Below are positions 4,066 to 58,158 of a stretch of 64,000 nt of DNA, piece after piece. Origin of the DNA: Escherichia coli (GTDB lineage: Bacteria; Pseudomonadota; Gammaproteobacteria; Enterobacterales; Enterobacteriaceae); the NCBI RefSeq assembly GCF_044324875.1, contig NZ_CP172185.1; one strand, 5' to 3'. Numbering within the stretch: position 1 is the stretch's first letter; each line of letters starts with the position of its first letter. The position numbers and the translations under genes were made by a program. The notes beneath the pieces are model-generated. The model was not told the DNA's origin. It was given only the letters and a program-made list of their open reading frames with translations, and ran no database searches.

Positions 4066-4255
4066 CTTTTGTTAACTCCTTTTTATAGATGCGGGAGGTA
4101 ATTCCTCACCCCGGTGCCGATTTTCAGGCATCCTGATTTAACTTAGCACCCGCAACTTAACTACAGGAAAACAAAGAGATAAATGTCTAATCCTGATGCA
4201 AATCGAGCCGATTTTTTAATCTTTACGGACTTTTACCCGCCTGGTTTATTAATTT

Positions 4256-4275
4256 CTTGACCTTCCCCTTGCTGG
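4256..4275. repeat. attL core (direct repeat copy 1)
   Basis: 20/20 identity with 39269..39288; lies 70 bp downstream of the int stop. Confidence 0.8.
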
Positions 4276-4344: not shown

Positions 4345-5388
4345 CTACCTCCCTTTTTCCTCAAAATGTGGACACTCAATGGACATATCACATAGCGGAT
4401 TATGCATCACAGCATCGCTTAAATAATCCGGCGAAAAATGCGCATAAGTCATTGTCTGAGATATATCTGCATGACCGAGGATTTTTTGAAGAGAAATAAT
4501 ATTCCCCCCATTCATCATAAAATGGGTGGCAAATGTATGCCTCAATACATGAACCGCTTGACCGTCCGGCAAATTAGGCTTAGCCACCTTCAGTTTCAGC
4601 CTAAACCATTTATAACTCACCCGAAATAAACGCCCCTCCTTGCGATGTTTTACAAGCCTAACAACATCATCAGAAACAGGAACAACCCGACGCTTATTAT
4701 TTTTTGTGAAATTAAATACAACCTTATTACCGATAATATGTTCCCCCATTAGCTGATATGCTTCATTCCAGCGACAGCCTGTAGACAACAAAAGGACAGC
4801 CATTCGGTAATAATCTCCCGAACCCTTGCAGATAGAAAGAAACGCACCAATCTCTTCATGATTAAGATAAGCCATCTCTGGGGTTTTTTCCTTGAGGCGA
4901 GGAAGCGACAATACAGGGTTACTACCGTGATATTCACCAATCTCTGCCATAGCCTTTAACGCAGCGCTAAACGCAAAAAGATCATGGTTGATTGTAGATG
5001 CCTTAACCCCTTGATCGAGACGGCGCGATCTATATTCAGCAACCATGCGTTCATCAATCTCGTACATCATAGGGTCACCCATATCAAGACAAATACACTG
5101 GAGGTTATTCAGTCTACGATTCGCGTAATCCTTGTGACGACCTATCAGTAACCACCACGTCGCAATGAAATCGCTTAAATATCGCTTGTCCAGAAGATTA
5201 CCGAAAACATCAACAGAAGGGCGATCAGCAAGAACTTCGCGTTCAAATGCTACAGCCAGATTTTTTTTCTCAAACTTCCGACGAATGCGCCTTCCCTTAC
5301 TTCCGTCGGGTCGAATGTCCACAAAATAGCGACCATCTTCGAGCTTCTTAATTGACATAAGAAGACCCTCCAACAGTCCATTCTCCAT
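4345..5388 (-). CDS. int: Tyrosine integrase, P2 Int family
   Basis: 347 aa; N-terminus MSIKKLEDGRYFVDIRPDG...RRIRRKFEKK and C-terminal HxLRHTFATHF...GHADISQTMTYAHF catalytic region resemble P2 Int as recalled. Confidence 0.92.
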   Translation of the reverse strand: MENGLLEGLLMSIKKLEDGRYFVDIRPDGSKGRRIRRKFEKKNLAVAFEREVLADRPSVDVFGNLLDKRYLSDFIATWWLLIGRHKDYANRRLNNLQCICLDMGDPMMYEIDERMVAEYRSRRLDQGVKASTINHDLFAFSAALKAMAEIGEYHGSNPVLSLPRLKEKTPEMAYLNHEEIGAFLSICKGSGDYYRMAVLLLSTGCRWNEAYQLMGEHIIGNKVVFNFTKNNKRRVVPVSDDVVRLVKHRKEGRLFRVSYKWFRLKLKVAKPNLPDGQAVHVLRHTFATHFMMNGGNIISLQKILGHADISQTMTYAHFSPDYLSDAVMHNPLCDMSIECPHFEEKGR

Positions 5389-9276: not shown

Positions 9277-9394
9277 GCAATCACCATGTACACACAAAAA
9301 AACCGCTTGCAACAACAAACCGGAACAGGGTACGCTTCCCCCGCACCTCATAAAGCGGGTGCCGGGTTTCGCAGCCTGCTGACTAGCAAAGCGC

Positions 9395-9417
9395 ACAACC
9401 GCGCCAGCGGTTTTTTT
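9395..9417 (+). terminator. Intrinsic terminator-like hairpin plus T7 within the 320-bp non-coding stretch after the 8722..9276 gene
   Basis: aaccgc-gcca-gcggtt followed by ttttttt. Confidence 0.45.
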
Positions 9418-9596
9418 GTGCGTACTGTATTGCCACGTCTTTTTCGCACACGAATTATGGCGGGGCGTACGGGGCCGACTTCGGTCGGGCCGGGTTCTTT
9501 GCTAGCCGGTACTGCGAACCTCGTACGTCTCGCCACCCACAGTTTCGCAGCTCTGGATGGTGAGTTTTTAAAACTTACTAGCAAAGAGGCCACACC

Positions 9597-13292: not shown

Positions 13293-13667
13293 ATGAATAA
13301 ACAGGATTTTGGACTTGATACCCTTTTGAGTATGCATGGTTACCAGCATCACATGGATAACGGGTACTGGTGGAAAATTGAGGCTTACCGGGTAAGTCCA
13401 AGTCCGTTCAGACCTCACGGGATACGCTACAATCTGACGTTACATGACCGCTACAATTCGCGTGTGTTTGGTATGGACAACGCACATGGAATAAAACCGC
13501 CAAAGAAGGGAAGATTTACAGGAAAGTTAACTGTTTATGATCATGTGCACCGTACCCCGGTGGATAAAGGTTATCCCTATGAGTTTGTATCCGCAGAACA
13601 ATTGTTATCTGATTTCTTTGATAACGTTGATCGGCTCATTAACGAAGTTACAAAGGGGAAAGCATGA
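13293..13667 (+). CDS. Hypothetical small protein (124 aa), first gene of an overlapping two-gene module in the A-to-Q cargo region
   Basis: ORF with own upstream promoter-like region (direct repeats atgatttgtt / atgatttatt); stop overlaps the next start (ATGA). H/Y/W-rich; no motif I can assign with confidence. Confidence 0.6.
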   Translation: MNKQDFGLDTLLSMHGYQHHMDNGYWWKIEAYRVSPSPFRPHGIRYNLTLHDRYNSRVFGMDNAHGIKPPKKGRFTGKLTVYDHVHRTPVDKGYPYEFVSAEQLLSDFFDNVDRLINEVTKGKA

Positions 13668-14050
13668 AAGCCCGCATCGGGATCATCCCGGAAAAAGTCC
13701 TGCGTCAGCGCCTGATTGAAATTGCCAAGGGGGAGCGGAAACCACACCCCGACGAGCCAAGGGTATGGTTTTCATCCATCAATGCGGCGGGTCAGGCGCT
13801 GAGCAATGAAAATATCTCCCTTCTTCGTCTTATGGATGAGGAGAAACCGCAGACCATGACCGAACTTGCGGAGTTATCCGGCAGAAAACTGAGTAACCTG
13901 TCTGTAACCCTGAAAATGCTGAGCAGCTACGGTTTTGTCAGTCTGGAAAAGAAAGGAAATACCGTACACCCGAAGGCACTTTTTACCGATTTTGAAATCA
14001 TCGTTGATCCGTCCGTCGGTTCAGTACATCGCGCCACCGCCCGCCCCTGA
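13664..14050 (+). CDS. Putative winged-helix DNA-binding protein (128 aa), second gene of the two-gene module
   Basis: Central MarR/winged-helix-like segment (MTELAELSGRKLSNLSVTLKMLSSYGFVSLEKKG); translationally coupled to 13293..13667. Confidence 0.6.
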   Translation: MKARIGIIPEKVLRQRLIEIAKGERKPHPDEPRVWFSSINAAGQALSNENISLLRLMDEEKPQTMTELAELSGRKLSNLSVTLKMLSSYGFVSLEKKGNTVHPKALFTDFEIIVDPSVGSVHRATARP

Positions 14051-14063
14051 AGTGTGCAATAAA

Positions 14064-14090
14064 CAGCCCCGGTCGGGGCTGTTTTTTATT
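14064..14090. terminator. Bidirectional intrinsic terminator between the converging 13664..14050 and 14086..14460 genes
   Basis: cagcccc-ggtc-ggggctg hairpin followed by ttttttatt. Confidence 0.6.
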
Positions 14091-14460
14091 CCAGAATCAG
14101 CTGTTCAGGTGTGCAGCCGTACAGTCTGGCAAGGCGCTCAATATTTGCCCTGCGCGGGCGTTCTGTTCTTTCGAATTCGGACACGGTAGCCTGCCTGATA
14201 CCCAGCGCATCCGCCACCTGCTTTTGCGTCATTCCGCGATAGATTCGCCACGCCGCCTGCATGGTGCAGCCACGTTCCGAGAGGATGTTGACCACCTCGT
14301 TGGGATACAGCGTATCAGGCGATGCACTCGGTTCGTTCTGGACGTCCTCGTAGAGTTCGTCAAGGTCGCTGTCTCCTGCCAGTTTTTCAAACAACGCCAC
14401 TGGCAGAATGACGGATACCCTGTTACCCGCACCGTCAGTAATAAACTGAATCTGACTCAT
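14086..14460 (-). CDS. XRE-family helix-turn-helix protein (124 aa), candidate antitoxin
   Basis: C-terminal HTH_XRE-like segment (MTQKQVADALGIRQATVSEFERTERPRRANIERLARLYG); downstream of and co-oriented with a RelE/ParE-like ORF. Confidence 0.6.
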   Translation of the reverse strand: MSQIQFITDGAGNRVSVILPVALFEKLAGDSDLDELYEDVQNEPSASPDTLYPNEVVNILSERGCTMQAAWRIYRGMTQKQVADALGIRQATVSEFERTERPRRANIERLARLYGCTPEQLILE

Positions 14461-27348: not shown

Positions 27349-29229
27349 ATGAGCACGAGAAAATTCAGAACCCTTATCACCGACATCGGGCTGGCAAAGC
27401 TGGCCGCAACAACGGCGCCTGGCGGTAGACCTGTACGCCTTACGCACATGGCTGTAGGGGACGGCAATGGAGAGCTTCGTCAGCCGCAGAAAAACCAGAC
27501 ATCGCTTTACAATGAGGTTTGGCGCCAGTCTGTCAACCGCGTCTTCACCGACCCGGAGAACCCGAACCGCCTCATCGCCGAACTGGTCATTCCTCCTGAA
27601 ACCGGCGGATTCTGGGTGCGTGAAATTGGTGTGTTTGATGATACAGGTACAATGATTGCAGTAGGAAATACCGCTGAAAGTTACAAGCCCACCAGAGAGG
27701 AAGGTTCAGGGCGGGCGCAGATATTCCGTGCAGTAATCACCGTCACCTCCGACGCCGTGGTGGAACTGGTCATGGACACAACAACAATTCTGCCGACCAC
27801 GGACTACATTGATGAGAAAATAGCGGAACACGCACGTTCCCGTAACCACCCTGACGCGACACTGACAGAAAAAGGATTCACCCAACTGAGCAGCGATACA
27901 AACAGCAATTCCGAAACGCTGGCGGCCACACCAAGAGCCGTCAAGGCTGCATATGACCTTGCAGCCCGTAAAGCACCCGCCAGCCACACCCACCCGTGGA
28001 ATCAGATAACTGGTGTGCCATCAGCCTCGCTGACGGCAAAAGGCATCGTACAGCTGAGCAGCGATACAAACAGCAATTCCGAAACGCTGGCGGCCACACC
28101 AAGAGCCGTCAAGGCTGCATATGACCTTGCAGCCGGTAAAGCACCCGCCAGCCACACCCACCCGTGGAATCAGATAACAGGTGTGCCATCAGCCTCGCTG
28201 ACGGCAAAAGGCACCGTACAGCTGAGCAGCGCCACAAACAGTGAGTCAGAGACTGAGGCCGCCACCCCCAAAGCGGTTAAAGCCTTACACGATATGCTGA
28301 CGAGCAAGTATACAGGACAGGATGCAACCACCGGACGCAAAGGCATCGTACAGCTGAGCAGCGCCACAAACAGCAATTCCGAAACGCTGGCGGCCACACC
28401 AAGAGCCGTCAAGGCTGCATATGACCTTGCAGCCAGTAAAGCCTCTGCCAGCCACACCCATCCGTGGAATCAGATAACAGGTGTTCCATCAGCCTCGCTG
28501 ACGGCAAAAGGCATCGTACAGCTGAGCAGCGCCACAAACAGCAATTCCGAAACGCTGGCGGCCACACCAAGAGCTGTTAAAGCTGCGTATGACCTTGCCA
28601 ACAGCAAAGCCGCGGCAGCCCACACTCATCGCTGGGCTCAGATCACAGACGCCCCTGTTTTTTCGTCTGTTGCCCGCGTCATCATGGGTAAACAAAGCAT
28701 AAAAGATATTCTTGATTACCTTGGTTTAGGAGAAGGCTCGACGCTGCCAGTTGGCGTACCCGTTCCGTGGCCTTCGTCAAGACCACCTGAAGGGTGGTTA
28801 CAGTGCAATGGTGCCGCATTCACGCGTACAAAATACCCAAAACTGGCAGTGGCCTACCCTGACCTAAGGCTACCAGATTTGCGCGGGGAATTTATTCGTG
28901 GATGGGATGACCTGCGAATGATTGACAGGGGACGCTTATTGTTATCCACACAGGAAGCAACATATATTTGTACCGCCATACAGGCGTACCACGGCGTAGC
29001 GGGAGGTGCAGATATTCAGGCAGGGATTTCATTTGCATCACATGATAACGACATCATAAACATAACCCCTGATCAACCCAGAACCGGTAACGGCATCCTG
29101 TACGGCAGAAAACCAGTTGACAGATGGGCAATAGCCAGAGCCGGTAAGCTGGTGAGTAATGAAAAAGACAGATGGATAGCGATCAGACCGCGCAATATCG
29201 CTTTTAATTATATTGTGAGGGCAGTTTAA
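27349..29229 (+). CDS. H: Tail fibre protein (gpH-like) with internal 56-aa tandem repeats and C-terminal tail-collar-like domain
   Basis: 626 aa; about five repeats of G(I/T)VQLSS(A/D)TNSNSETLAATPRAVKAAYDLA...SHTHPWNQITGVPSASLTAK; position before the fibre assembly gene. Confidence 0.85.
   Translation: MSTRKFRTLITDIGLAKLAATTAPGGRPVRLTHMAVGDGNGELRQPQKNQTSLYNEVWRQSVNRVFTDPENPNRLIAELVIPPETGGFWVREIGVFDDTGTMIAVGNTAESYKPTREEGSGRAQIFRAVITVTSDAVVELVMDTTTILPTTDYIDEKIAEHARSRNHPDATLTEKGFTQLSSDTNSNSETLAATPRAVKAAYDLAARKAPASHTHPWNQITGVPSASLTAKGIVQLSSDTNSNSETLAATPRAVKAAYDLAAGKAPASHTHPWNQITGVPSASLTAKGTVQLSSATNSESETEAATPKAVKALHDMLTSKYTGQDATTGRKGIVQLSSATNSNSETLAATPRAVKAAYDLAASKASASHTHPWNQITGVPSASLTAKGIVQLSSATNSNSETLAATPRAVKAAYDLANSKAAAAHTHRWAQITDAPVFSSVARVIMGKQSIKDILDYLGLGEGSTLPVGVPVPWPSSRPPEGWLQCNGAAFTRTKYPKLAVAYPDLRLPDLRGEFIRGWDDLRMIDRGRLLLSTQEATYICTAIQAYHGVAGGADIQAGISFASHDNDIINITPDQPRTGNGILYGRKPVDRWAIARAGKLVSNEKDRWIAIRPRNIAFNYIVRAV
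27880..28640 (+). repeat. Tandem 168-bp (56-codon) direct repeats inside the tail fibre gene
   Basis: Repeat unit recurs at 28021, 28189, about 28357 and about 28486 at nucleotide level. Confidence 0.8.
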
Positions 29230-30410: not shown

Positions 30411-33400
30411 CTAATCTCTGTCACGGAAACTACCGACTGTCTGGCGGATACGGCGTTCCATTTCCGCACGGACGGCATCACCCACCATTTTTGCCAGTTC
30501 GCGCGGGTTTTGCGTGTGAACATCATGCAGGTGAATATGCAGTTCGCCAGTTAATCCCCATGGTGCCGGATCACTCTGACGCGGTCGGGGCGATGCGGGG
30601 GATATGGGCTGGCGTACAGCCTCAACCACCGGACGGGATGTTGCCGTTACGACGGGTGTCATTACCGGCGCAATATTGCCGGACACGACCGGTTTAATTA
30701 CCGGGGAGAGCGTCGGTATAACATCGCCAGCCATAACCGGTTTGATCGCTGGCGAAATAACCGGAGCAACAGACTCAGCCATGACGGAACTGACAGGCTG
30801 AGGCGCTCTCACTATGCCAGCATCGATAACCAGCATGAGCTCGCGTACTGCCTCAAGGACAGGACGGGATATTGCCGCCATCACTGGTGTCATTAGCGGG
30901 GAGAACGTCGGCATGACATCGTGAGTCATAACCGGTTTGATCACCGGCGAAACCACTGGCGTAATATTACCGGACAGTACCGGACGGACGACCGGAGGAA
31001 TAACCGGCACATTATTCACGGACACCACCGGCTTCACGACCGGCGACACGTTCGCCGTGGTGGATATCAGCGGCGAAACACTGACAGGCGGTGGCGCTGG
31101 CAGCGGTGGCAACGAAGGCACACTGACCGACGGCACCTGCGGCAGTCTGACAGGTGGCTCACTGACACTACCCGGTAACAGGGAAGCTGCGCGGTTAAAG
31201 CGTTCCTCCTTCCACTCACCACGAACGGCCAGCGCTTCCGGCAGGTTTTTAAAGATAATATCGCCGGGACCAGTGCGTTTTTTCGCCTGTTTCGCCTCAT
31301 CCAGCAGGCCACCGGTGTTATCGACGATTTTATTCAGGCGACGCATGGTGCCGGTATTCTCCCCCGTCAGCGGAGCAGTTGCTGCAGGTGCAGGTACTGG
31401 CGGCTTTTTGTCTTTGTCATTTTGCGGCGGATTAATGACATTAACATCCGCCAGGAGCATGGCGGCTTTCTCGTTCAGCAGCTCCTTCTGCTTCAGCTCT
31501 TCCGCCTTTTTCCGGGCGCGCTCAACCGCCGACGGAATCAGCCCGAGTTTTTCCAGCACCCGGGTTAACGAGTCAACCAGCAGCGTGACCGGACCGGTCA
31601 CCAGATTGCTGATAAACTCCCCGACCTTCTGCCCGAACGTCCGCCCGGCTTCCGTGCACTTGTCCAGCTCATCCTTTGTTGTGCTTACCGGCGCGAACAG
31701 GTCCACGAACCACTGCCACACACGCCCGATTGTCTGCCCGACGTACTCAAATATCGGTCCCAGCGGTGCCACAGCCTCGCGCAGTGGCGTAAGCCCCTGC
31801 CACAGGCCGGACAGATACCCACCCACGACAGCCTTCAGCTGGTCCCAGTGCCGCCAGATAAGCACTGCCGCACCGACCAGTGCCGCCACCACGAGGCCCA
31901 CCGGACTTAACAGAAAACCCAGCGCCCCGCCAAGTGCGCCCACCGCACCACTCACCATTCCCCACAGCGCAGGCAGACCTGACAGTCTGAGCGCCAGCAT
32001 ACCGATACCGCGCCCCAGAGAAAGCAGAGCACCGCCCGGGGAAGTGAACGCAGCCAGCAGACCACCACGCAGCGTACCGAGTAGTCCGCGCACGCCACGA
32101 AGCCGGACCGCAAGCCGTCCCGCACCGGTATCAAGACCGGCAAACAGCACACGCCAGCCGCCAATACCACTCATCGACCCACCGAGTACGCCGCGCAGCT
32201 GCGTCAGTAACGGCAGCGCACGACCGAGGCCGGATGTGCCGGTCAGCAGGGAAAAGCCAAGACGCAGTTTTGCCAGCGGCCCCAGCAACACGCCGGTAGC
32301 CAGTGACAGCGCCCCCGTGGCCGCAACCGCAGCCAGCAGTGCACCACCGGCAATCAGCAGTTGTTTTGTCAGTTCAGGGTGCGCCTGGGCCAGCGCGGTG
32401 ACTTTCGCAATAACCCGGGTGAACGACTGCGTGACAGAACGCAGCGGCCCGTCAACGAGGTCAGCGACACGGATACGCAGCCCTTCCCATGCGCTGTTCA
32501 GTGATTTCAGGTCGCCGTCCAGGTTGTCCGCCATGATTCTGGCGTTTTCTTCCAGTTCGCCGTTCGCTGCCTGAATCTCACGCGTCAGGCGCGGCAGGTT
32601 TTTTTCGCCTGCCTGTTCAACCAGGCTCATCAGGGAGACATACGCCTCCTGCCCGGCAATATCTGAAAAGAACGAGACTTTTGCCGCGTTACCGTATTTA
32701 CGGGTGGCCTGATACAGCTCATACAGGATATCTTCCATCGGGCGCATGTTCCCGTAAGCATCCTGCGTTTCCACGCCCAGCTGTTTCAGCGCCTTTGCTG
32801 CCGCTTTAGGCGGGTTCACAAGGCGGGACAGACTGGAGCGCAGCGCCGTACCAGCATCACTGCCACGTATCCCCATCGACCCAAGCAACCCGGTCATGGC
32901 TGCGGTCTGTTCAAGAGACAGACCGAGTGAGGCGGCGACCGGTCCCGTATATTTCATCGTCTCACCAAGCCCGCGCAGGTCGGTATTGGTGCGGGTGAAC
33001 GTTGCGGCCAGCGTGTCACCCACGCGGTTCATCTGGTCGGCAGACAACCCGAACTGCGTAAGGATATTTGAGCTGATATCGGCCGTCTGACCGAGGTCCA
33101 TGCCGCTGGCCGTTGCCAGATTCAGCACGCCGGGAAGAGCCGCCTGTATCGCCTGCGGCGTGAACCCCGCCATGGCAAGGAACGCCTGACCGCTGGCAGC
33201 ATCACCTGCGGTAAACTGCGTTTCGGAGCCGAGTTTAAGCGCCTGTTCGCGCAGCGCCTTAAACTGCGGACTGTTTTTGTCAATACGGGTCAGCGCCTGG
33301 ACGCGCGACATCTCCTTACCAAAACTGACCGCCGGTTGCAGGAAACGCCCGGCCGCATAGCCACCTGCCGCTGCCGTGCCGACTGCCGTAAATCCACCCG

Positions 33401-33932
33401 CTTTCAGTTTTCCCGCCATCTCCTGAGCGCGGAAATATTGCTGGCGTGCCTGCGTGACGCGTGCCAGAGTCTGCCGTTCACGTTCCAGCTGTTCGTTGTA
33501 TTGCTGTGTTCGCCGTATGGCCTGTTGAATGGTGTTGTCACTGCCGGAAAGCGCAATACCGTGACGCCGCAGCTCACCACCCAGTTCGCGCATTCGCTGA
33601 ACTTCACGCGCACGGACCTCATTGAGACGCTCAAGTTTGAGGCTCAAATCGTTCATCAGCTTTTTCTGTTTGTCAGACAGCACGGTTCCGGCGCGCTGAA
33701 TTTGCTGAAGTGCGCTTAACTGGCGTTGTGCCCGGGCAATGCCGTTTCCGGCCTTGTTTGCAGCCTCGCGGGCGCGATCAAATGAACGGGCGTGGCGTTC
33801 CAGGTTTTTGATCGCACCCTGCGTTCTCTGTATGGAGTCGCCAAGCTGGCCCATCATGCGACGGGCGTTTTCGGTGGGACGGGTCAGCCTGTCAACAGCG
33901 CTGAAGGCGACCCGTATATCAAGCGTTTTCAT
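30411..33932 (-). CDS. T: Tail tape measure protein (gpT-like), 1173 aa from the ATG overlapping the E' stop, with Pro/Val-rich repetitive C-terminus
   Basis: Very long Ala/Gly/Leu-rich ORF following the E/E' chaperone pair; the ORF track start at 33968 is an over-extension. Confidence 0.85.
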   Translation of the reverse strand: MKTLDIRVAFSAVDRLTRPTENARRMMGQLGDSIQRTQGAIKNLERHARSFDRAREAANKAGNGIARAQRQLSALQQIQRAGTVLSDKQKKLMNDLSLKLERLNEVRAREVQRMRELGGELRRHGIALSGSDNTIQQAIRRTQQYNEQLERERQTLARVTQARQQYFRAQEMAGKLKAGGFTAVGTAAAGGYAAGRFLQPAVSFGKEMSRVQALTRIDKNSPQFKALREQALKLGSETQFTAGDAASGQAFLAMAGFTPQAIQAALPGVLNLATASGMDLGQTADISSNILTQFGLSADQMNRVGDTLAATFTRTNTDLRGLGETMKYTGPVAASLGLSLEQTAAMTGLLGSMGIRGSDAGTALRSSLSRLVNPPKAAAKALKQLGVETQDAYGNMRPMEDILYELYQATRKYGNAAKVSFFSDIAGQEAYVSLMSLVEQAGEKNLPRLTREIQAANGELEENARIMADNLDGDLKSLNSAWEGLRIRVADLVDGPLRSVTQSFTRVIAKVTALAQAHPELTKQLLIAGGALLAAVAATGALSLATGVLLGPLAKLRLGFSLLTGTSGLGRALPLLTQLRGVLGGSMSGIGGWRVLFAGLDTGAGRLAVRLRGVRGLLGTLRGGLLAAFTSPGGALLSLGRGIGMLALRLSGLPALWGMVSGAVGALGGALGFLLSPVGLVVAALVGAAVLIWRHWDQLKAVVGGYLSGLWQGLTPLREAVAPLGPIFEYVGQTIGRVWQWFVDLFAPVSTTKDELDKCTEAGRTFGQKVGEFISNLVTGPVTLLVDSLTRVLEKLGLIPSAVERARKKAEELKQKELLNEKAAMLLADVNVINPPQNDKDKKPPVPAPAATAPLTGENTGTMRRLNKIVDNTGGLLDEAKQAKKRTGPGDIIFKNLPEALAVRGEWKEERFNRAASLLPGSVSEPPVRLPQVPSVSVPSLPPLPAPPPVSVSPLISTTANVSPVVKPVVSVNNVPVIPPVVRPVLSGNITPVVSPVIKPVMTHDVMPTFSPLMTPVMAAISRPVLEAVRELMLVIDAGIVRAPQPVSSVMAESVAPVISPAIKPVMAGDVIPTLSPVIKPVVSGNIAPVMTPVVTATSRPVVEAVRQPISPASPRPRQSDPAPWGLTGELHIHLHDVHTQNPRELAKMVGDAVRAEMERRIRQTVGSFRDRD

Positions 33933-34445
33933 GCTCTGCGTTCCCGCTGCGAAGGGCCGCCCGCTCACGCCAGGCGACCACCTCGCCGGGATCCATCAGG
34001 AAGATTTCAGCGGGAGACCAGTTGAAAATAACGGCGATATCCGCCACAAAGTCTTCAATATGCTCAAAGGGCACGACGGTTATCAGCCTGCCGTCGCCGC
34101 CACGCTCTTCCCGCCAGAGTCCTGACCGGCCAAAAAATTAACCGCCACCCCGCACAGCTGAATAAAATCAGCGGACCCCATGCGCTTAAGCATAACCTCG
34201 TCCAGTCGCGGCGAAGTGACGCGCGGGAGTAACTCAAACATCGCGTCCGTTTTCATGTTCAGCACGTCAAGCAGTGACAGCCCGCGCAGTGAACCGGCCT
34301 GCTGTACAGCAGGCGTGATTTCCACATACGTGATTTTTTTGTTACCGAGCACAAGGGGTGTTTTCAGTGTCACGCCGCGCTCACTGGTCACGTCAGCCAC
34401 ATCAGCACCGTCAGTAACAGGGGCAACAACCGGATTTTCTTTCAT
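33919..34445 (-). CDS. Tail assembly chaperone frameshift product E+E' (programmed -1 frameshift at 34131..34137)
   Basis: Manual translation in the -1 frame after T_TTT_TTG gives an extended product ending at TGA 33919..33921, overlapping the tape measure start. Confidence 0.7.
34083..34445 (-). CDS. E: Tail assembly chaperone, P2 gpE family (zero-frame product)
   Basis: 120-aa ORF upstream of the tape measure gene; carries the slippery heptamer near its 3' end. Confidence 0.8.
   Translation of the reverse strand: MKENPVVAPVTDGADVADVTSERGVTLKTPLVLGNKKITYVEITPAVQQAGSLRGLSLLDVLNMKTDAMFELLPRVTSPRLDEVMLKRMGSADFIQLCGVAVNFLAGQDSGGKSVAATAG
34131..34137 (-). promoter_or_regulatory. Programmed -1 ribosomal frameshift heptamer T TTT TTG (E to E')
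   Basis: Heptamer in frame as (AA)T TTT TTG in the last part of E; conserved mechanism in tail chaperone genes. Confidence 0.7.
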
Positions 34446-34494
34446 GAATAAAACCTCAAATCAGGGGCGACGCCACGCGCCGCCGTGGAAAACA

Positions 34495-35013
34495 TTAACC
34501 ACCAAGACCAATCGCCGAGCGCACGCGGTCCGGGAAGACGCTTTTGCCGTCCTTGCGTTCGATGTGGTTCAGTAAATCAATCTCCAGCACCGGACGGTCG
34601 TTAATGCTGAGTTTGTAGTAGGTACTTTTGACCGCATAGGTGTGAGACGTGACCTCACCCTGTTTGGCCTCCCCGGTATCAATTTCCGTCACGCGACCGC
34701 GAAGCTCAATCTCGTACAGGTCACTCTGTTCTTCATCGTTGTAGTACTCACCGACAAAGCGCAGCAGCGTACCGTCAATCGTGCCGCCGTACTTGAGGAA
34801 CAGTTCGCGGGTCGGCCCGCCCATGGTGAAACTCGCATCCAGCGCGCCGTCATCCAGGCCAAGGTCGATATTTACTGCACCGGCCATACCACCACCGCGA
34901 TAGGCTTCCGTTTTACGGGTCAGTTTGGGGGGCGTGAAGCCGGTCACCCTGCCAATCTGGTTCACCCCGTCAGTAAACAGCGTGAACACCCTGAGATTTT
35001 TTGGTACGGCCAT
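34495..35013 (-). CDS. FII: Tail tube protein, P2 gpFII family
   Basis: 172 aa between the sheath and E genes. Confidence 0.8.
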   Translation of the reverse strand: MAVPKNLRVFTLFTDGVNQIGRVTGFTPPKLTRKTEAYRGGGMAGAVNIDLGLDDGALDASFTMGGPTRELFLKYGGTIDGTLLRFVGEYYNDEEQSDLYEIELRGRVTEIDTGEAKQGEVTSHTYAVKSTYYKLSINDRPVLEIDLLNHIERKDGKSVFPDRVRSAIGLGG

Positions 35014-36393: not shown

Positions 36394-36457
36394 AAACAGC
36401 CATTCAACGCCGCTACGGTGCATGAAACCATTACAGAACGCACCAGGAGAGAACACC

Positions 36458-37549
36458 ATGAAAGAGCTGTCAGTTACCGTTCCGTCACCGGATATCGACA
36501 TCACCATCAACAACAACACACTGGCAAACCTCACAGAGCGACTCATGACGCTGACCCTGACGGATAACCGGGCCTTTGAGGCAGACCGCGTCACCCTCAC
36601 CCTTGACGATACGGACGGGCAGTTACAGTTGCCACCACGTGGCGCACGCCTGAGAGTGATGATTGGCTGGCGCGGGGAGGCGCTGGTTAACAAGGGTGTC
36701 TACATCGTTGATGAAGTGACGTGGGAAGGCCCGCCGGACAAACTGACCATCACCGCCAGCAGCGCCGATTTTCGCGAAGAGTTCAACGTGAAGCGTGAAG
36801 TCTCCTGGCACGACGTGACGGTAAAACAGGTTGTGTCAGCCATCGCGCACCGCTACGGCCTGAAAGCACAGATAAGCGATATCCTCATGGATATCGAAAT
36901 TGACCACGCAGACCAGACCGAAGAGAGTGATATATCCTTCCTGACCCGCATGGCTGAAATGCTGGGTGCGATTGCCACCGTAAAAAACGGCAGCCTGTTA
37001 TTCATTCTGCCGGGTGGCGGAACCGGGCCGGACGGAAAAGCCCTGCCTTCGTTCGCCATTACCCGCAGCAGCGGCGACAGTCACCGCTTTCGCATTGCTG
37101 ACCGTGATGCGTATACGGGGGTCCGGGCGCACTGGCTCGATCTGAAGTTCGGGCAAAAGAAAAAAGTGAACGTGAAGCGACGCAGGGAAGCCGGGAAACA
37201 GAAACAGGAGAAGAGCAGCAGCCGGGAAGGTGATTACATGGAAGGCGCGGAAGGTAACGTCTACGTTCTGCGCAGGACTTACCAGAATGAAGAAACCGCA
37301 CGACGTGCAGCAGCTGCAAAGTGGCAGGAACTACAGCGGGGCGCGGCATCATTCTCCATCACGCTGGCGCGCGGTCGTGCCGACCTGTACCCTGAAATGC
37401 ACGGCAGGGTAACAGGTTTTAAAAGCGAGGTGGACAATCAGGACTGGATTATTGCCAGGGTGGAGCACAGCATAGATGAAAGCGGCTTCACCACACAACT
37501 GGAGCTGGAAGCGAAAATCCCCGAATGGATAGCAGATTCAGGCGGATAA
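36458..37549 (+). CDS. D: Tail protein D (gpD-like), 363 aa from ATG 36458
   Basis: Size and position before ogr as P2 D; AGGAGA ribosome binding site upstream of ATG 36458. Confidence 0.8.
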   Translation: MKELSVTVPSPDIDITINNNTLANLTERLMTLTLTDNRAFEADRVTLTLDDTDGQLQLPPRGARLRVMIGWRGEALVNKGVYIVDEVTWEGPPDKLTITASSADFREEFNVKREVSWHDVTVKQVVSAIAHRYGLKAQISDILMDIEIDHADQTEESDISFLTRMAEMLGAIATVKNGSLLFILPGGGTGPDGKALPSFAITRSSGDSHRFRIADRDAYTGVRAHWLDLKFGQKKKVNVKRRREAGKQKQEKSSSREGDYMEGAEGNVYVLRRTYQNEETARRAAAAKWQELQRGAASFSITLARGRADLYPEMHGRVTGFKSEVDNQDWIIARVEHSIDESGFTTQLELEAKIPEWIADSGG

Positions 37550-37592
37550 AATTAAAATGAGCCATCTCCACTCAGCCAGATAAGGAGAAGCC

Positions 37593-37844
37593 ATGTTCCG
37601 TTGTCCCCTGTGCGGTGCATCCGCACGTATCCGCACCAGTCGCAATGAAAATGATTCAGGCACAGTTCGCCTGAAGTACTACCAGTGCAATAACCTCGAA
37701 TGCGGGATCGGCTTTACCACACTGGAGGGTTTTAACAAATTCACATCAAAACGCGCCCCGTCGCCGCAGGGTACAGAGCGGATACCGTGGGAAGATTTTC
37801 CGGGATCTCACAGGGGGAATGCTCAGATGAATCTTGATATTTAA
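37593..37844 (+). CDS. ogr: Zinc-finger late gene activator, Ogr/Delta family
   Basis: 83 aa with CPLC...C-x4-C zinc-finger spacing and N-terminus MFRCPLCG resembling P2 Ogr (MFHCPLC...). Confidence 0.88.
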   Translation: MFRCPLCGASARIRTSRNENDSGTVRLKYYQCNNLECGIGFTTLEGFNKFTSKRAPSPQGTERIPWEDFPGSHRGNAQMNLDI

Positions 37845-37962
37845 GAACAATAATCAGGTTGAGAGGACATCATAAGGCAAGTAGATTAACGGCAGATACT
37901 TTCCCGCAACCACGGGCAAGTATTTAATTATCCATGATGAAATATGACCTAAATTGTTTTTT

Positions 37963-37988
37963 GCCCGCCGGAAAGCGGGCATTTTTTT
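37963..37988 (+). terminator. Intrinsic terminator 1 of the ogr-attR array (gcccgc-cggaaa-gcgggc plus T8)
   Basis: Hairpin and T-run read directly. Confidence 0.75.
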
Positions 37989-38202
37989 ATTCTTTTGTGG
38001 TTATGGGGTCATCAGGAACCACGTGCAGATTATATTTTTGTTTTTTTGGCGTTCCTCCGGCAGCAACGAGTTCATCAATAAGACACTGACACGCCTGAAC
38101 ATCCCGGGCATGTCTTAGTTTCACCTTTATTGATTTAACCTTATCCTCACCGGAGGAGAAATGCAGTTCAATCTCAATATCGTTTCTTCGGAACAATCTC
38201 AT
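37987..38202 (-). CDS. Hypothetical small protein (71 aa) between ogr and attR
   Basis: ORF on the minus strand; no recognisable motif. Confidence 0.4.
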   Translation of the reverse strand: MRLFRRNDIEIELHFSSGEDKVKSIKVKLRHARDVQACQCLIDELVAAGGTPKKQKYNLHVVPDDPITTKE

Positions 38203-38429
38203 ACGCCCCCCTGAATATATCAGAAATGCTAGTATCGAAAAATGAGAAAACAGTTAGACAGGAGAAACATATTAACACAAATCATTTATACCTATAGATG
38301 AAATTATAATTTCATTCATGAATATGATAGATAACTATATTGTGAACAAAATGAAAAATGGCTAAATTAAAAATGGGCATGGAGGAATGCCTCGTAATCA
38401 GTAATACATGATCCATACTTCCTTGTTTT

Positions 38430-38455
38430 GCCCGCCGGAAAGCGGGCATTTTTTT
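38430..38455 (+). terminator. Intrinsic terminator 2 of the array (identical hairpin gcccgc-cggaaa-gcgggc plus T8)
   Basis: Identical stem-loop to terminator 1. Confidence 0.75.
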
Positions 38456-38631
38456 GGCGGTTACCATCGCCTCACCTTCCTGGTTCACACAAAGCAACCC
38501 TGATTTTCCATGAAAACTTCAGGGTTGAGCCAAAAGCACAAAGACAGTAGATTAACCAAGGGTACCCGCCACCTGCCAACAGGAACGGTATCCAGTACGT
38601 ATTAATGACTGACAATTCACATTGCTGTTTT

Positions 38632-38657
38632 GCCCGCCAGAAGGTGGGCATTTTTTT
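38632..38657 (+). terminator. Intrinsic terminator 3 of the array
   Basis: gcccgcc-agaa-ggtgggc hairpin plus T7. Confidence 0.7.
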
Positions 38658-38834
38658 GGCAGTTATCATGGACGCACCTTCATGACACATATTAAGCAGA
38701 CCTGATTTTTCCATGAAAAATTCATGGTTGAGACAAAAGCACAAAAACAGTAGATTAACCACGGGTGCCTGCCACCTGACAACAGGAAGGGGTGTCCATT
38801 ATCCATGATATACAAACGAAAAGTCTTGTCTTTT

Positions 38835-38861
38835 GCCCGCCGTTGCGCGGGCTTTTTTTTT
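38835..38861 (+). terminator. Intrinsic terminator 4 of the array
   Basis: gcccgc-cgttgc-gcgggc hairpin plus T9. Confidence 0.7.
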
Positions 38862-39203: not shown

Positions 39204-39268
39204 CTTCAAAAATGGACACTACGTGGACACTGATTAAATAATCCTTTCTTAATCAGACTGTTAAAATG

Positions 39269-39288
39269 CTTGACCTTCCCCTTGCTGG
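39269..39288. repeat. attR core (direct repeat copy 2)
   Basis: Identical to 4256..4275. Confidence 0.8.
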
Positions 39289-56226: not shown

Positions 56227-58158
56227 TCAAATGGGGCGGATACTTTCTTCATCCAGCTCCGCATCGAAGAATCGACGCAGGGTCTGAATATTATTATCCG
56301 CAATAATGGACTCGCGCGCCTGCGCAAGTTTTTCTTCGTATATCGCCTGACGCCATTCCAGCGGCGTACGCACCGCGGGATTATCATCTTCAACGATAGT
56401 CAGTTCAACCGTTGAACCTTTTAACGTGCTCAACGCTTCAGCCAGTTTTTGCTGTGCGCCGCGGTTGTTCAAATGCCGCTGAGAGGAGCGCAAATGCAGA
56501 CATACTGCGTTGTCGCTCTCCTCTTTCCAGGCATTTAACGCCACCTGTTCGACCAGTTTTGGTAGCGAAAGTTGACTCACCTGAGCCGCCCACGGGTCGC
56601 GCTCAATGGCTTCTGCCGCCAGCTTCGCCGCCAGTTCCGGCGTTTTTTCATGTTCCAGCGCTTTTTTTAGCGCCTTCGGCGTGGCGACCACTTCTTTTTG
56701 CTGCATCACTGGAGTGGTAGCCTTCCAGCGATACGCTTCTTTTTTGGCTGGCGCTTTTTCCAGCGCCGATGGCACCGGACGCGCCTGAACGCGATCGGTG
56801 ACCGAAGCCAGTCTTTCCAGCGCAGCGTTATTCACCGGCCGCGCGCGGGTAGCGGCTGCCGGTTCACTCTTTTTTGCTTTGGTTGCTCCCTGCACGCGCT
56901 GCAACTGCTGGCGCGCCGCCAGCACCTGGCTGGTGGTTTCCGGGAGCGGTACAGTCGGTGCCTGCTGCGGCGCTGATTGCGGTTGTGGCGGCACCTGGGT
57001 TGGCGTCATTACTGCCGTTGGCGCAACGAGCGCAAAGGACTGGCGTGGCACTTCTGGCTCAGGCAGAGGCATACGCGGATGGAACGCCAGCGCGCGCAGC
57101 AGCGTCATCTCAACACCCATACGGCGGTCTGGCGCATACGGTAATTCTTTGCGACCAATCAACAGCGTCTGATAGTAAAGCTGAATATCCGTCGGCGGTA
57201 TGGTGCGCGCCAGTTCACGCATCCGCAGCTCAATGGCGGCCATGTCGTTGCCAAGAGCAGCAGGCGAAAGTTGTACCATCGCAATACGATGCAACAGACC
57301 GAGCATTTCCACCAGCAACGCTTCCCACTCGATACCACGGGCAGCAGCTTCATTAATTAGCGCCATTACGCGCTCGCCGTTGGCCTCGACCATCGCTTCA
57401 ACCAGCGATAACGCCTGATCGTCGTCAAGCGTACCCAGCATCGCACTGACCGCCTGGGTTGAAACCTGGCCGTCACCGCTGGCAATCGCCTGGTCGGTCA
57501 GACTTAAGGCATCTCGCAGGCTGCCTTCAGCGGCGCGTGCCAACAATTGCAGCGCCCGCGGCTCGTGAGCGATATGTTCTTCGTTGAGGATGTGCTCAAG
57601 CTGATGGCGAATTTGCTCGACATCCAGCGCCTTGAGATGAAATTGCAGACAGCGTGACAAAATCGTCACCGGCAATTTCTGCGGATCGGTCGTCGCCAGC
57701 AAAAACTTAACGTGCTCTGGCGGCTCTTCAAGGGTTTTTAACAGTGCGTTAAAGCTGTGACGCGACAGCATATGCACTTCGTCGATGAGATAAACTTTGA
57801 AACGACCACGCGCCGGAGCGTACTGGACGTTATCCAGCAGGTCGCGAGTGTCTTCAACTTTAGTGCGCGAGGCGGCGTCGATTTCAATCAGATCGACAAA
57901 GCGCCCCTGCTCGATTTCACGACAATTATCGCACACGCCGCACGGCGTCGCGGTAATGCCGGTTTCGCAGTTTAGCCCCTTCGCCAGCAGTCGGGCGATA
58001 GAGGTTTTTCCGACGCCACGGGTACCGGAAAAAAGATAAGCATGATGAATACGCCCTAACGACAAGCCGTTCGCCAGTGCGGTCAGCACATGTTCCTGGC
58101 CGACGACGTCAGCAAAGGTTTGTGGGCGCCATTTTCGGGCTAAGACCTGATAACTCAT
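56227..58158 (-). CDS. dnaX: DNA polymerase III tau subunit (gamma produced by frameshifting)
   Basis: 643 aa with AAA+ motifs; contains the A AAA AAG slippery site. Confidence 0.97.
   Translation of the reverse strand: MSYQVLARKWRPQTFADVVGQEHVLTALANGLSLGRIHHAYLFSGTRGVGKTSIARLLAKGLNCETGITATPCGVCDNCREIEQGRFVDLIEIDAASRTKVEDTRDLLDNVQYAPARGRFKVYLIDEVHMLSRHSFNALLKTLEEPPEHVKFLLATTDPQKLPVTILSRCLQFHLKALDVEQIRHQLEHILNEEHIAHEPRALQLLARAAEGSLRDALSLTDQAIASGDGQVSTQAVSAMLGTLDDDQALSLVEAMVEANGERVMALINEAAARGIEWEALLVEMLGLLHRIAMVQLSPAALGNDMAAIELRMRELARTIPPTDIQLYYQTLLIGRKELPYAPDRRMGVEMTLLRALAFHPRMPLPEPEVPRQSFALVAPTAVMTPTQVPPQPQSAPQQAPTVPLPETTSQVLAARQQLQRVQGATKAKKSEPAAATRARPVNNAALERLASVTDRVQARPVPSALEKAPAKKEAYRWKATTPVMQQKEVVATPKALKKALEHEKTPELAAKLAAEAIERDPWAAQVSQLSLPKLVEQVALNAWKEESDNAVCLHLRSSQRHLNNRGAQQKLAEALSTLKGSTVELTIVEDDNPAVRTPLEWRQAIYEEKLAQARESIIADNNIQTLRRFFDAELDEESIRPI
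56869..56875 (-). promoter_or_regulatory. dnaX programmed -1 frameshift heptamer A AAA AAG (tau/gamma)
   Basis: Plus-strand ctttttt at 56869..56875 = minus aaaaaag within ...GCA AAA AAG AGU GAA..., encoding the ...AKKSE... region of tau. Confidence 0.85.

What the first reader, a model, noticed from the sequence alone, without database searches (positions are those of the whole stretch)
34131..34137. Programmed -1 frameshift site for the tail chaperone E/E'
T_TTT_TTG heptamer in the correct frame; -1 translation continues for about 70 codons and stops overlapping the tape measure start codon, as expected for the conserved chaperone frameshift. This confirms the minus-strand orientation of the block.
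Basis: partly seen in the sequence, partly recalled or inferred. Interest (0 to 1): 0.25.

Follow-up and report, generated by a model that had tools for sequence, protein, structure and literature searches.

The report
P2-type tail chaperone frameshift site
The flagged TTTTTTG is the conserved -1 ribosomal frameshift site of the P2-family tail assembly chaperone gene E/E' in a P88-like E. coli prophage; it is real but a textbook feature, merely left unannotated in RefSeq.

Summary
On the minus strand, TTTTTTG (34137..34131) lies in X_XXY_YYZ phase inside a 120-aa ORF (34445..34083) between the tail tube and tape measure genes. The -1 frame opens only two codons upstream (TAA 34140..34138). It runs exactly 70 codons to TGA 33921..33919, 14 nt into the tape measure gene (ATG 33932). 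The predicted 175-aa fusion aligns colinearly with phage P2 gpE+E' (BLASTP 1e-27). The Phe-Leu slip codons align with P2's annotated frameshift site, and the -1 part matches Pfam Phage_P2_GpE (3.5e-12). In 17 named Peduoviridae and 77 unique IMG/VR relatives, E' is always in the -1 frame. Every one has an in-phase slippery heptamer at the homologous position, mostly TTTTTTG, otherwise AAATTTT, CCCTTTC, CCCTTTT, TTTTTTA, TTTTTTT, TTTTTTC or GGGAAAG. No such heptamer occurs at 4,688 other in-phase positions of E. I found no downstream RNA structure, as the literature reports for P2. The rivals are poorly supported: separate initiation of E' (the RefSeq model), transcriptional slippage and chance. 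Verdict: a correct call of an already known, ordinary phage feature. Interest is low.

The parts
34083..34445 (-). gpE, the 0-frame tail assembly chaperone ORF (120 aa, ATG 34445, TGA 34085..34083)
   Evidence: ORF list and translation. PHROG 103 'tail protein' 1.8e-31. Residues 19-105 align with P2 gpE. RefSeq calls it 'hypothetical protein' WP_000662444.1.
34131..34137 (-). Slippery heptamer T_TTT_TTG (0-frame codons AAT TTT TTG = Asn-Phe-Leu)
   Evidence: Sequence and phase. Same heptamer and phase as the annotated P2 site. Conserved or replaced by another in-phase slippery heptamer in 17 named phages and 77 IMG/VR relatives.
34138..34140 (-). TAA stop in the -1 frame immediately 5' of the heptamer; it sets the upstream limit of any productive shift
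   Evidence: the -1 frame is open for only 2 codons upstream of base 34131.
33919..34131 (-). E' extension: 70 codons in the -1 frame plus TGA 33921..33919
   Evidence: Translation. Pfam PF06528 Phage_P2_GpE 3.5e-12. PHROG 1756 at 1e-32, covering residues 2-67 of 70. Substitutions against P88 show a third-position bias in the -1 frame.
33919..34445 (-). Whole gpE+E' coding unit (predicted 175-aa frameshift product)
   Evidence: BLASTP against P2 gpE+E' 1e-27, colinear through the junction. 18-sequence alignment A1. AlphaFold pLDDT 86, with a helix (91-107) spanning the junction.
34454..34457 (-). GAGG Shine-Dalgarno, 8 nt upstream of the E start codon
   Evidence: Read directly from the sequence.
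34145..34153 (-). SD-like GCGGGGTGG, 7 nt upstream of the heptamer (possible stimulator; weak evidence)
   Evidence: Anti-SD duplex -9.5 kcal/mol, in the top 0.6% of 9-mers in the gene. Not conserved in the window's own subfamily.
34495..35013 (-). Tail tube gene (FII), upstream neighbour
   Evidence: Pfam PF04985 1.7e-44.
30411..33932 (-). Tape measure gene (gpT, 1173 aa from ATG 33932), downstream neighbour; overlaps E' by 14 nt
   Evidence: PF10145 3.3e-58 and TIGR01760 2e-87. Aligns with P88 gpT from Met1, MKTLDIR.

Best explanation
This is the programmed -1 ribosomal frameshift site of the tail assembly chaperone gene E of a P2-family (Xuanwuvirus/P88-like) prophage of E. coli.

Shown by the sequence: most ribosomes that start at ATG 34445 would read through the heptamer and stop at TGA 34085..34083, giving the 120-aa gpE.

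Inferred from P2 and the general tandem-slippage model: a minority pause with tRNA-Phe on UUU (34136..34134, P site) and tRNA-Leu on UUG (34133..34131, A site). Both tRNAs slip back one base and re-pair with UUU UUU (34137..34132). Translation then continues with GGC (34131..34129) for 70 codons to TGA 33921..33919. The product is a 175-aa gpE+E' with the same N-terminus and a different C-terminal domain.

Inferred by analogy with lambda gpG/gpGT: gpE and the E part of gpE+E' coat the tape measure protein gpT. The E' domain recruits the tube protein so that it polymerises around gpT. Neither protein stays in the virion. The fixed frameshift rate sets their ratio.

No RNA structure appears to stimulate the shift. 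The heptamer itself seems to be the signal. In this lineage an SD-like GGGGTGG 7 nt upstream may also contribute.
For: Position, phase and the 70-codon -1 ORF. Synteny sheath-tube-E-T-U. The -1 peptide matches Pfam Phage_P2_GpE at 3.5e-12 and PHROG 1756 at 1e-32. The fusion aligns with P2 gpE+E' at 1e-27, with the Phe-Leu slip codons aligned. The P2 record annotates the -1 frameshift at the same TTTTTTG. PMC3091744 states that P2 shifts -1 at TTTTTTG to give E (91 aa) and E+E' (142 aa), citing Christie 2002 and Xu 2004. All 398 phage records hit by tblastn come mostly as two pieces in two frames. 13 of 17 named Peduoviridae share the in-phase TTTTTTG, including 64-68% GC Burkholderia, Ralstonia and Acidovorax phages, and the other four have other in-phase slippery heptamers. 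In 77 of 77 unique IMG/VR relatives E' is in the -1 frame with an in-phase slippery heptamer at the homologous site, against 0 of 4,688 in-phase positions elsewhere in E. TTT-TTG is a disfavoured codon pair, with probability 0.005-0.1 per locus. Downstream of the heptamer, substitutions against P88 fall on -1-frame third positions: 7 of 11 in the overlap and 16 of 26 beyond it. AlphaFold models the fusion as one confident fold across the junction.
Against: There is no direct evidence that the 175-aa protein is made in this prophage, and the efficiency is unknown. The N-terminal E domain fails Pfam PF10109 (Phage_TAC_7), which P2 gpE matches. RefSeq and the P88 GenBank record annotate E' as a separate 51-aa gene with its own GTG start. 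No stimulatory element could be shown. U_UUU_UUG ends in a 'heterogeneous' ZZN codon, a class reported as less shift-prone in E. coli. The chaperone function is inferred from P2 and lambda, not tested here.
Confidence: 0.93

Rival explanations
1. E' is an independent small gene (51 aa) translated from its own GTG start at 34074, as RefSeq and GenBank annotate it. The heptamer would then be incidental.
For: the ORF listing reports a 51-aa GTG-initiated ORF at 34074..33919. PGAP calls it 'GpE family phage tail protein' WP_001115715.1. P88 and other records annotate it the same way.
Against: The -1 frame is conserved upstream of that GTG, back to the heptamer: GRSGLWREERGGDG... against P88, with a third-position bias in the -1 frame. 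The PHROG 1756 profile covers residues 2-67 of the 70-aa -1 peptide. There is no Shine-Dalgarno within normal distance of the GTG (sequence). This rival does not explain the conserved in-phase heptamer in 94 relatives. The P2 record and the literature describe E+E' as a frameshift fusion.
Confidence: 0.03
2. The frame change is made by RNA polymerase slippage on the T6 run, which would insert one extra U in a fraction of the mRNAs, rather than by the ribosome.
For: The site is a homopolymeric run of six T. Transcriptional slippage is a known recoding route in bacteria and phages (review PMC5009743).
Against: Relatives keep the function with heptamers whose longest single-base run is only 3 or 4 bases: A_AAT_TTT as the sole site in 14 unique sequences, C_CCT_TTC in 14, and G_GGA_AAG in Mannheimia phage. 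The strict codon phase of the motif, in 77 of 77 relatives, matters only for tRNA re-pairing and is irrelevant to polymerase slippage. From my own knowledge, not tested here, runs of 6 are shorter than those that slip efficiently.
Confidence: 0.03
3. The heptamer is a chance occurrence, or a frameshift mutation has split a once-continuous gene in a decaying prophage.
For: TTTTTTG is common in the window, with 32 copies. A random in-phase X_XXY_YYZ in a 17-codon overlap has roughly a 7% chance (my estimate).
Against: The split layout and the slip site are conserved across Peduoviridae from gamma- and beta-proteobacteria. The prophage module is otherwise intact, and the region is 100% identical in 4 complete E. 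coli genomes.
Confidence: 0.01

Closest known systems
Bacteriophage P2 gpE / gpE+E' programmed -1 frameshift in the FETUD tail operon (Christie et al. 2002, cited in PMC3091744; annotated in NC_001895)
   Same: Identical heptamer T_TTT_TTG in the same phase on the aligned Phe-Leu codons. The gene lies between tube gene FII and tape measure gene T. E' ends a few nt inside T. The fusion proteins are 36% identical over 151 residues (1e-27). The E' domain matches PF06528. There is no downstream hairpin.
   Different: E is longer: 120 against 91 aa, with a disordered ~19-residue N-terminal extension. A ~10-residue insertion (…LWREERGGDG…) follows the junction. The E domain does not reach Pfam PF10109. 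The E'/T overlap is 14 nt against 8 nt. gpD and ogr are on the opposite strand, not downstream of U, as in P88.
Escherichia phage P88 and other Xuanwuvirus (Peduoviridae) E/E' genes
   Same: Closest sequenced phages: ~78% nt and ~68-70% aa identity, with the same gene order, including the divergent gpD. P88 has the same T_TTT_TTG.
   Different: P88 also has an overlapping A_AAT_TTT. P88_4B11 has lost TTTTTTG and keeps only A_AAT_TTT, 3 nt upstream. In the window that alternative is impossible, because the -1 codon there is TAA. None of these records annotates the slippage.
Lambda gpG/gpGT and the general tail assembly chaperone frameshift of dsDNA phages (Levin 1993; Xu, Hendrix, Duda 2004, 2013, 2014; reviewed in PMC5009743)
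   Same: [quoted passage not shown] The chaperone role is presumed.
E. coli dnaX -1 frameshift element (Rfam RF00382), present in the same window at 56830..56894 (-)
   Same: A -1 tandem slippage on an X_XXY_YYZ heptamer in E. coli. An SD-like sequence lies upstream of the heptamer in this particular copy.
   Different: dnaX has a strong downstream stem-loop and a curated covariance model. The E/E' site has no Rfam hit, no excess folding energy (z between -0.4 and +0.3) and no consensus structure in 20 relatives. In dnaX the shifted product is shorter; here it is longer.

Membership tests
P2-type gpE/gpE+E' tail chaperone frameshift (Peduoviridae) | The gene lies between the tail tube (FII) and tape measure (T) genes, on the same strand | tested here: met
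   Tube PF04985 at 34495..35013(-), T PF10145/TIGR01760 at 30411..33932(-), E at 34083..34445(-).
P2-type gpE/gpE+E' tail chaperone frameshift (Peduoviridae) | A second ORF in the -1 frame overlaps the 3' end of E and runs to the start of T | tested here: met
   The -1 frame is open from 34137 to TGA 33921..33919 (70 codons after the slip) and overlaps T by 14 nt.
P2-type gpE/gpE+E' tail chaperone frameshift (Peduoviridae) | An in-phase slippery heptamer (TTTTTTG in P2) lies within the overlap, at the position homologous to P2's | tested here: met
   T_TTT_TTG at 34137..34131, phase offset mod 3 = 2 as in P2. The Phe-Leu codons align in BLASTP and in alignment A1, where F104 is nearly invariant.
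P2-type gpE/gpE+E' tail chaperone frameshift (Peduoviridae) | The -1-frame product belongs to the GpE (E') family | tested here: met
   PF06528 Phage_P2_GpE 3.5e-12, 46.1 bits against a cut-off of 23. PHROG 1756 1e-32.
P2-type gpE/gpE+E' tail chaperone frameshift (Peduoviridae) | The 0-frame product belongs to the E chaperone family (Pfam PF10109 Phage_TAC_7, which P2 gpE matches) | tested here: inconclusive
   No Pfam or NCBIfam hit, even at E<=10. Homology to P2 gpE is nevertheless shown by BLASTP (residues 19-105 against 1-85, within the 1e-27 alignment) and by PHROG 103 at 1.8e-31.
P2-type gpE/gpE+E' tail chaperone frameshift (Peduoviridae) | Both E and E+E' are actually synthesised, and both are needed for tail assembly | not testable with these tools
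   Needs proteomics and genetics. Known for P2 only, from the annotation notes and cited literature.
General tail assembly chaperone (lambda G/GT-like) frameshift of tailed phages | Conserved two-frame arrangement across relatives, with the slip site under selection | tested here: met
   77 of 77 unique IMG/VR relatives and 17 of 17 named phages have E' in the -1 frame with an in-phase X_XXY_YYZ. None occurs at 4,688 control positions. Codon-choice improbability.
General tail assembly chaperone (lambda G/GT-like) frameshift of tailed phages | Structural similarity to solved tail assembly chaperones | tested here: inconclusive
Structured bacterial -1 PRF signals (dnaX / IS911 / IS3 type) | Downstream stem-loop or pseudoknot stimulator | tested here: not met
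   Folding z-scores are -0.37, +0.29 and -0.20 for 60, 90 and 120 nt. RNAalifold finds 0 pairs in 20 relatives. No Rfam match. This agrees with PMC3091744 for P2, KS5, KS14 and KL3.
Structured bacterial -1 PRF signals (dnaX / IS911 / IS3 type) | Upstream Shine-Dalgarno-like stimulator, 6-17 nt 5' of the motif | tested here: inconclusive
   The window has GCGGGGTGG (-9.5 kcal/mol, 7-nt spacer, zone rank p 0.035), and 12 of 18 diverse phages have a top-3% SD-like 9-mer nearby. Only 12% of 75 close relatives do.

The most novel reading that the evidence does not exclude
The most novel reading left open concerns how this structure-less site is tuned. One possibility is an internal Shine-Dalgarno-like element: GGGGTGG 7 nt upstream here, and GAGGTG/AAGGTG in P2, Fels-2, Burkholderia, Ralstonia and Acidovorax phages. 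It would pair with the 16S rRNA 3' end, as in dnaX. The other is the choice among interchangeable heptamers: TTTTTTG, AAATTTT, CCCTTTC. Different Peduoviridae lineages would then set different E:E+E' ratios by swapping stimulator or motif.
Probability: 0.15. Interest if true: 0.25.

Novelty: already known. Interest (0 to 1): 0.1.

Why it matters
The finding has little value for discovery. The tail chaperone frameshift is among the best-conserved recoding events in tailed phages, and this copy is an ortholog of the P2 site that was characterised experimentally. Its practical value is for annotation. RefSeq (PGAP) and several phage GenBank records, including P88, split the unit into a 'hypothetical protein' and a 51-aa 'GpE family' gene, with no ribosomal_slippage join. 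The 175-aa gpE+E' is therefore missing from protein databases for this lineage. The survey also documents turnover of the slippery heptamer at one fixed codon position across relatives, which is useful for frameshift predictors.

Tried and rejected
1. Downstream stimulatory RNA structure. Single-sequence folds of 60, 90 and 120 nt are no better than shuffles. RNAalifold on 20 diverse relatives gives no pairs. Rfam at E<=10 gives nothing relevant. Rejected.

2. Upstream SD-like stimulator. It looked promising in 18 diverse phages, but it is absent from most of the window's own subfamily. Kept only as a low-probability idea.

3. Pfam and NCBIfam assignment of the 0-frame E protein. No hit, even at E<=10. 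Homology had to be shown by BLASTP to P2 and by PHROGs instead.

5. The primary paper, Christie et al. 2002 (PMC135442), is not held. Its content is cited second-hand through PMC3091744 and the NC_001895 annotation.

6. A first viral-contig scan with the single protein found only 2 loci. The alignment-based scan was needed.

7. A literature search for P88/Xuanwuvirus frameshift statements found nothing specific.

8. The rivals were considered and rejected for the reasons given under Rival explanations: independent GTG start, RNA polymerase slippage, and chance or pseudogene.

Full report
**Observation**

The minus strand reads ...GCG GTT AAT TTT TTG GCC GGT... in the frame of a 120-aa ORF (ATG 34445, TGA 34085..34083). 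TTTTTTG occupies 34137..34131. Its first base is 308 nt from the A of the ATG, and 308 mod 3 = 2, so the 0 frame reads (AA)T TTT TTG, the X_XXY_YYZ phase needed for tandem tRNA slippage.

The -1 frame is closed by TAA at 34140..34138, directly 5' of the heptamer. From base 34131 it stays open for exactly 70 codons, to TGA 33921..33919. The tape measure gene starts at ATG 33932, and the alignment with P88 gpT begins at that Met. E' therefore ends 14 nt inside T, not on its start codon. P2 has the same kind of arrangement with an 8-nt overlap.

The heptamer alone means little. The window holds 32 copies, against 15.6 expected. What matters is that it is the only in-phase slippery heptamer in the 52-nt stretch where both frames are open.

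**What it is**

The block on the minus strand is, in order:
- tail sheath (PF04984, PF17482);
- tube (PF04985, 1.7e-44);
- this ORF;
- tape measure (PF10145 3.3e-58; TIGR01760 2e-87);
- gpU (PF06995).

gpD and ogr lie on the opposite strand.

The window is E. coli chromosome carrying a 35-kb P2-family prophage. The region is 100% identical to four complete E. coli genomes, and 41 of 5,426 genomes have a match. The nearest phages are P88 and other Xuanwuvirus, at about 78% nt identity.

The conceptual fusion is 105 residues in the 0 frame plus 70 in the -1 frame, 175 aa in total. It aligns colinearly with P2 gpE+E' (BLASTP 1e-27, 36% identity over 151 residues). The window's N-F-L|G junction lies over P2's G-F-L|V. 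The -1 part matches Pfam Phage_P2_GpE (3.5e-12) and PHROG 1756 (1e-32, covering residues 2-67 of 70). The 0-frame part matches PHROG 103 (1.8e-31).

The P2 reference record annotates E+E' as a joined CDS, with a '-1 translational frameshift' site at the same TTTTTTG in the same phase. PMC3091744, citing Christie 2002 and Xu 2004, states that P2 shifts -1 at TTTTTTG to make E (91 aa) and E+E' (142 aa) from one start.

**Conservation**

A tblastn search with the fusion hits 398 phage records. Nearly all appear as two pieces in two frames.

I compared 17 named Peduoviridae from Escherichia, Salmonella, Klebsiella, Enterobacter, Yersinia, Burkholderia, Ralstonia, Acidovorax, Stenotrophomonas, Mannheimia and Vibrio hosts. 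Thirteen have the in-phase TTTTTTG. The other four have in-phase TTTTTTT, TTTTTTC, AAATTTT or GGGAAAG.

An alignment-driven scan of IMG/VR gave 82 loci and 77 unique sequences. In all 77, E' is in the -1 frame and at least one in-phase X_XXY_YYZ sits at the homologous site:

| Heptamer | Unique sequences |
|---|---|
| TTTTTTG | 48 |
| AAATTTT | 30 (the only site in 14) |
| CCCTTTC | 14 |
| CCCTTTT | 8 |
| TTTTTTA | 1 |

No such heptamer occurs at 4,688 in-phase positions elsewhere in E.

Given local codon usage, TTT-TTG is an unlikely way to encode Phe-Leu. The probability is about 0.009 in the window and 0.005-0.1 elsewhere, including phages of 64-68% GC.

Downstream of the heptamer, substitutions against P88 fall on third positions of the -1 frame: 7 of 11 in the overlap and 16 of 26 beyond the E stop. 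The -1 frame is therefore the more constrained reading frame from the heptamer onward.

AlphaFold, run with the 18-sequence alignment, models the fusion as one confident unit (pLDDT 86, pTM 0.76). A helix at residues 91-107 runs through the junction.

**Mechanism**

Shown by the sequence:
- the two frames;
- the single permissible slip site;
- the two predicted products.

Inferred from P2 and from the standard model:
- With tRNA-Phe on UUU in the P site and tRNA-Leu on UUG in the A site, both slip back one base onto UUU UUU.
- The ribosome then continues with GGC, giving ...AVNFL-GRSGLWREERGGDG....

Inferred by analogy with lambda gpG/gpGT:
- gpE and gpE+E' would be tail assembly chaperones.
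- Both would bind the tape measure protein.
- The E' domain would recruit the tube protein.
- Neither would remain in the virion.

I found no stimulatory RNA structure. Folding energies are at shuffle level (z -0.37, +0.29, -0.20). RNAalifold on 20 relatives predicts no pairs, and Rfam finds nothing. This matches what is reported for P2 and the Burkholderia phages.

An SD-like GCGGGGTGG lies 7 nt upstream (-9.5 kcal/mol). Similar elements occur in P2, Fels-2, Burkholderia, Ralstonia and Acidovorax phages. Only 12% of 75 close relatives have one, so I treat it as a weak, untested possibility.

**Rivals**

- *Separate initiation of E' at GTG 34074.* This is the RefSeq/GenBank model. It does not explain the -1-frame conservation between the heptamer and that GTG, the lack of a ribosome-binding site, or the conserved heptamer.
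- *RNA polymerase slippage on T6.* Relatives use AAATTTT, CCCTTTC or GGGAAAG, whose longest single-base run is only 3 or 4 bases. The strict codon phase also matters only to tRNAs.
- *Chance, or a decaying gene.* Conservation excludes both.

**Comparison and membership**

All sequence-testable defining features of the P2 E/E' system are met. One qualification remains: the E domain does not reach Pfam PF10109, which P2 gpE matches at 1.5e-12, although direct BLASTP and PHROG matches show homology.

Relative to P2, this lineage has three differences:
- a disordered ~19-residue N-terminal extension;
- a ~10-residue insertion just after the junction;
- gpD and ogr inverted, as in P88.

The window also contains the host dnaX frameshift element (RF00382, 56830..56894, 96.8 bits). 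It makes a useful contrast: dnaX has a structured signal and the phage site does not.

**Verdict**

The feature is an ortholog of a frameshift characterised experimentally in P2 and known to be conserved across tailed phages. It is already known, and interest is low. The only practical consequence is that RefSeq and several phage records lack the ribosomal-slippage join for this lineage.

Noticed in passing
window 4251-4275 and 39264-39288: A 25-nt direct repeat (core CTTGACCTTCCCCTTGCTGG), 35,013 bp apart, flanks the prophage. The integrase ORF is at 4345-5388(-). The right copy appears to be the copA promoter, with a dyad I recognise (from my own knowledge) as the CueR operator (ACCTTCCCCTTGCTGGAAGGT), just upstream of copA (ATG 39341). 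The phage would therefore be integrated inside the copA regulatory region and would rebuild it.
   Followed up: partly
window 37959-38860 (+): There are four copies of a terminator-like hairpin, GCCCGCCGGAAAGCGGGC followed by a T run, and ~203-nt tandem units. They lie in the ~1-kb unannotated gap between ogr and the right prophage end. No Rfam family reaches threshold, and their function is unknown.
   Followed up: partly
window 56830-56894 (-), inside ORF 56227-58158: The host dnaX -1 ribosomal frameshift element (Rfam RF00382, 96.8 bits, E 6e-20) is a second, unrelated -1 frameshift site in the same window.
   Followed up: no
window 30411-33932 (-): The tape measure ORF is intact at 1173 aa. 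It is colinear with P88 gpT (935 aa, 57% identity) but carries a ~185-aa Pro/Val-rich repeat insertion (residues ~913-1097; DNA repeats 30688-30998) and a ~70-aa internal duplication. RefSeq marks the corresponding gene in E. coli Ch1 as a partial pseudogene, which looks like an annotation artefact.
   Followed up: partly
window 9343-9417 (+) and 9453-9540 (+): isrK Hfq-binding RNA (RF01394, 64.7 bits) and C4 antisense RNA (RF01695, 82.8 bits) lie side by side in the prophage early region.
   Followed up: no
window 36422-37844 (+): gpD (PF05954) and ogr (PF04606) are on the opposite strand, divergent from the sheath gene. In P2 they follow gpU (FETUD-ogr order). P88 has the same inverted arrangement.
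   Followed up: yes
L007 (Xuanwuvirus P88_4B11) 894-903; L024, L025 and 12 other IMG/VR loci: In these close relatives TTTTTTG is mutated to TTTTATG, and the only in-phase slippery heptamer is A_AAT_TTT, 3 nt upstream. In a Klebsiella (Reipivirus-like) group it is C_CCT_TTC. This shows slip-site turnover at one fixed position.
   Followed up: yes
window 27871-28638: The tail fibre gene (ORF 27349-29229) contains 168/300-nt tandem repeats. The corresponding gene in E. coli Ch1 is longer (812 against 626 aa), so repeat copy number varies between otherwise near-identical prophages.
   Followed up: no
window ~13500-14195 (-): A RelE-family toxin and an HTH protein pair, annotated as type II toxin-antitoxin in the identical E. 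coli Ch1 prophage, lies between the portal gene and the replication genes.
   Followed up: no
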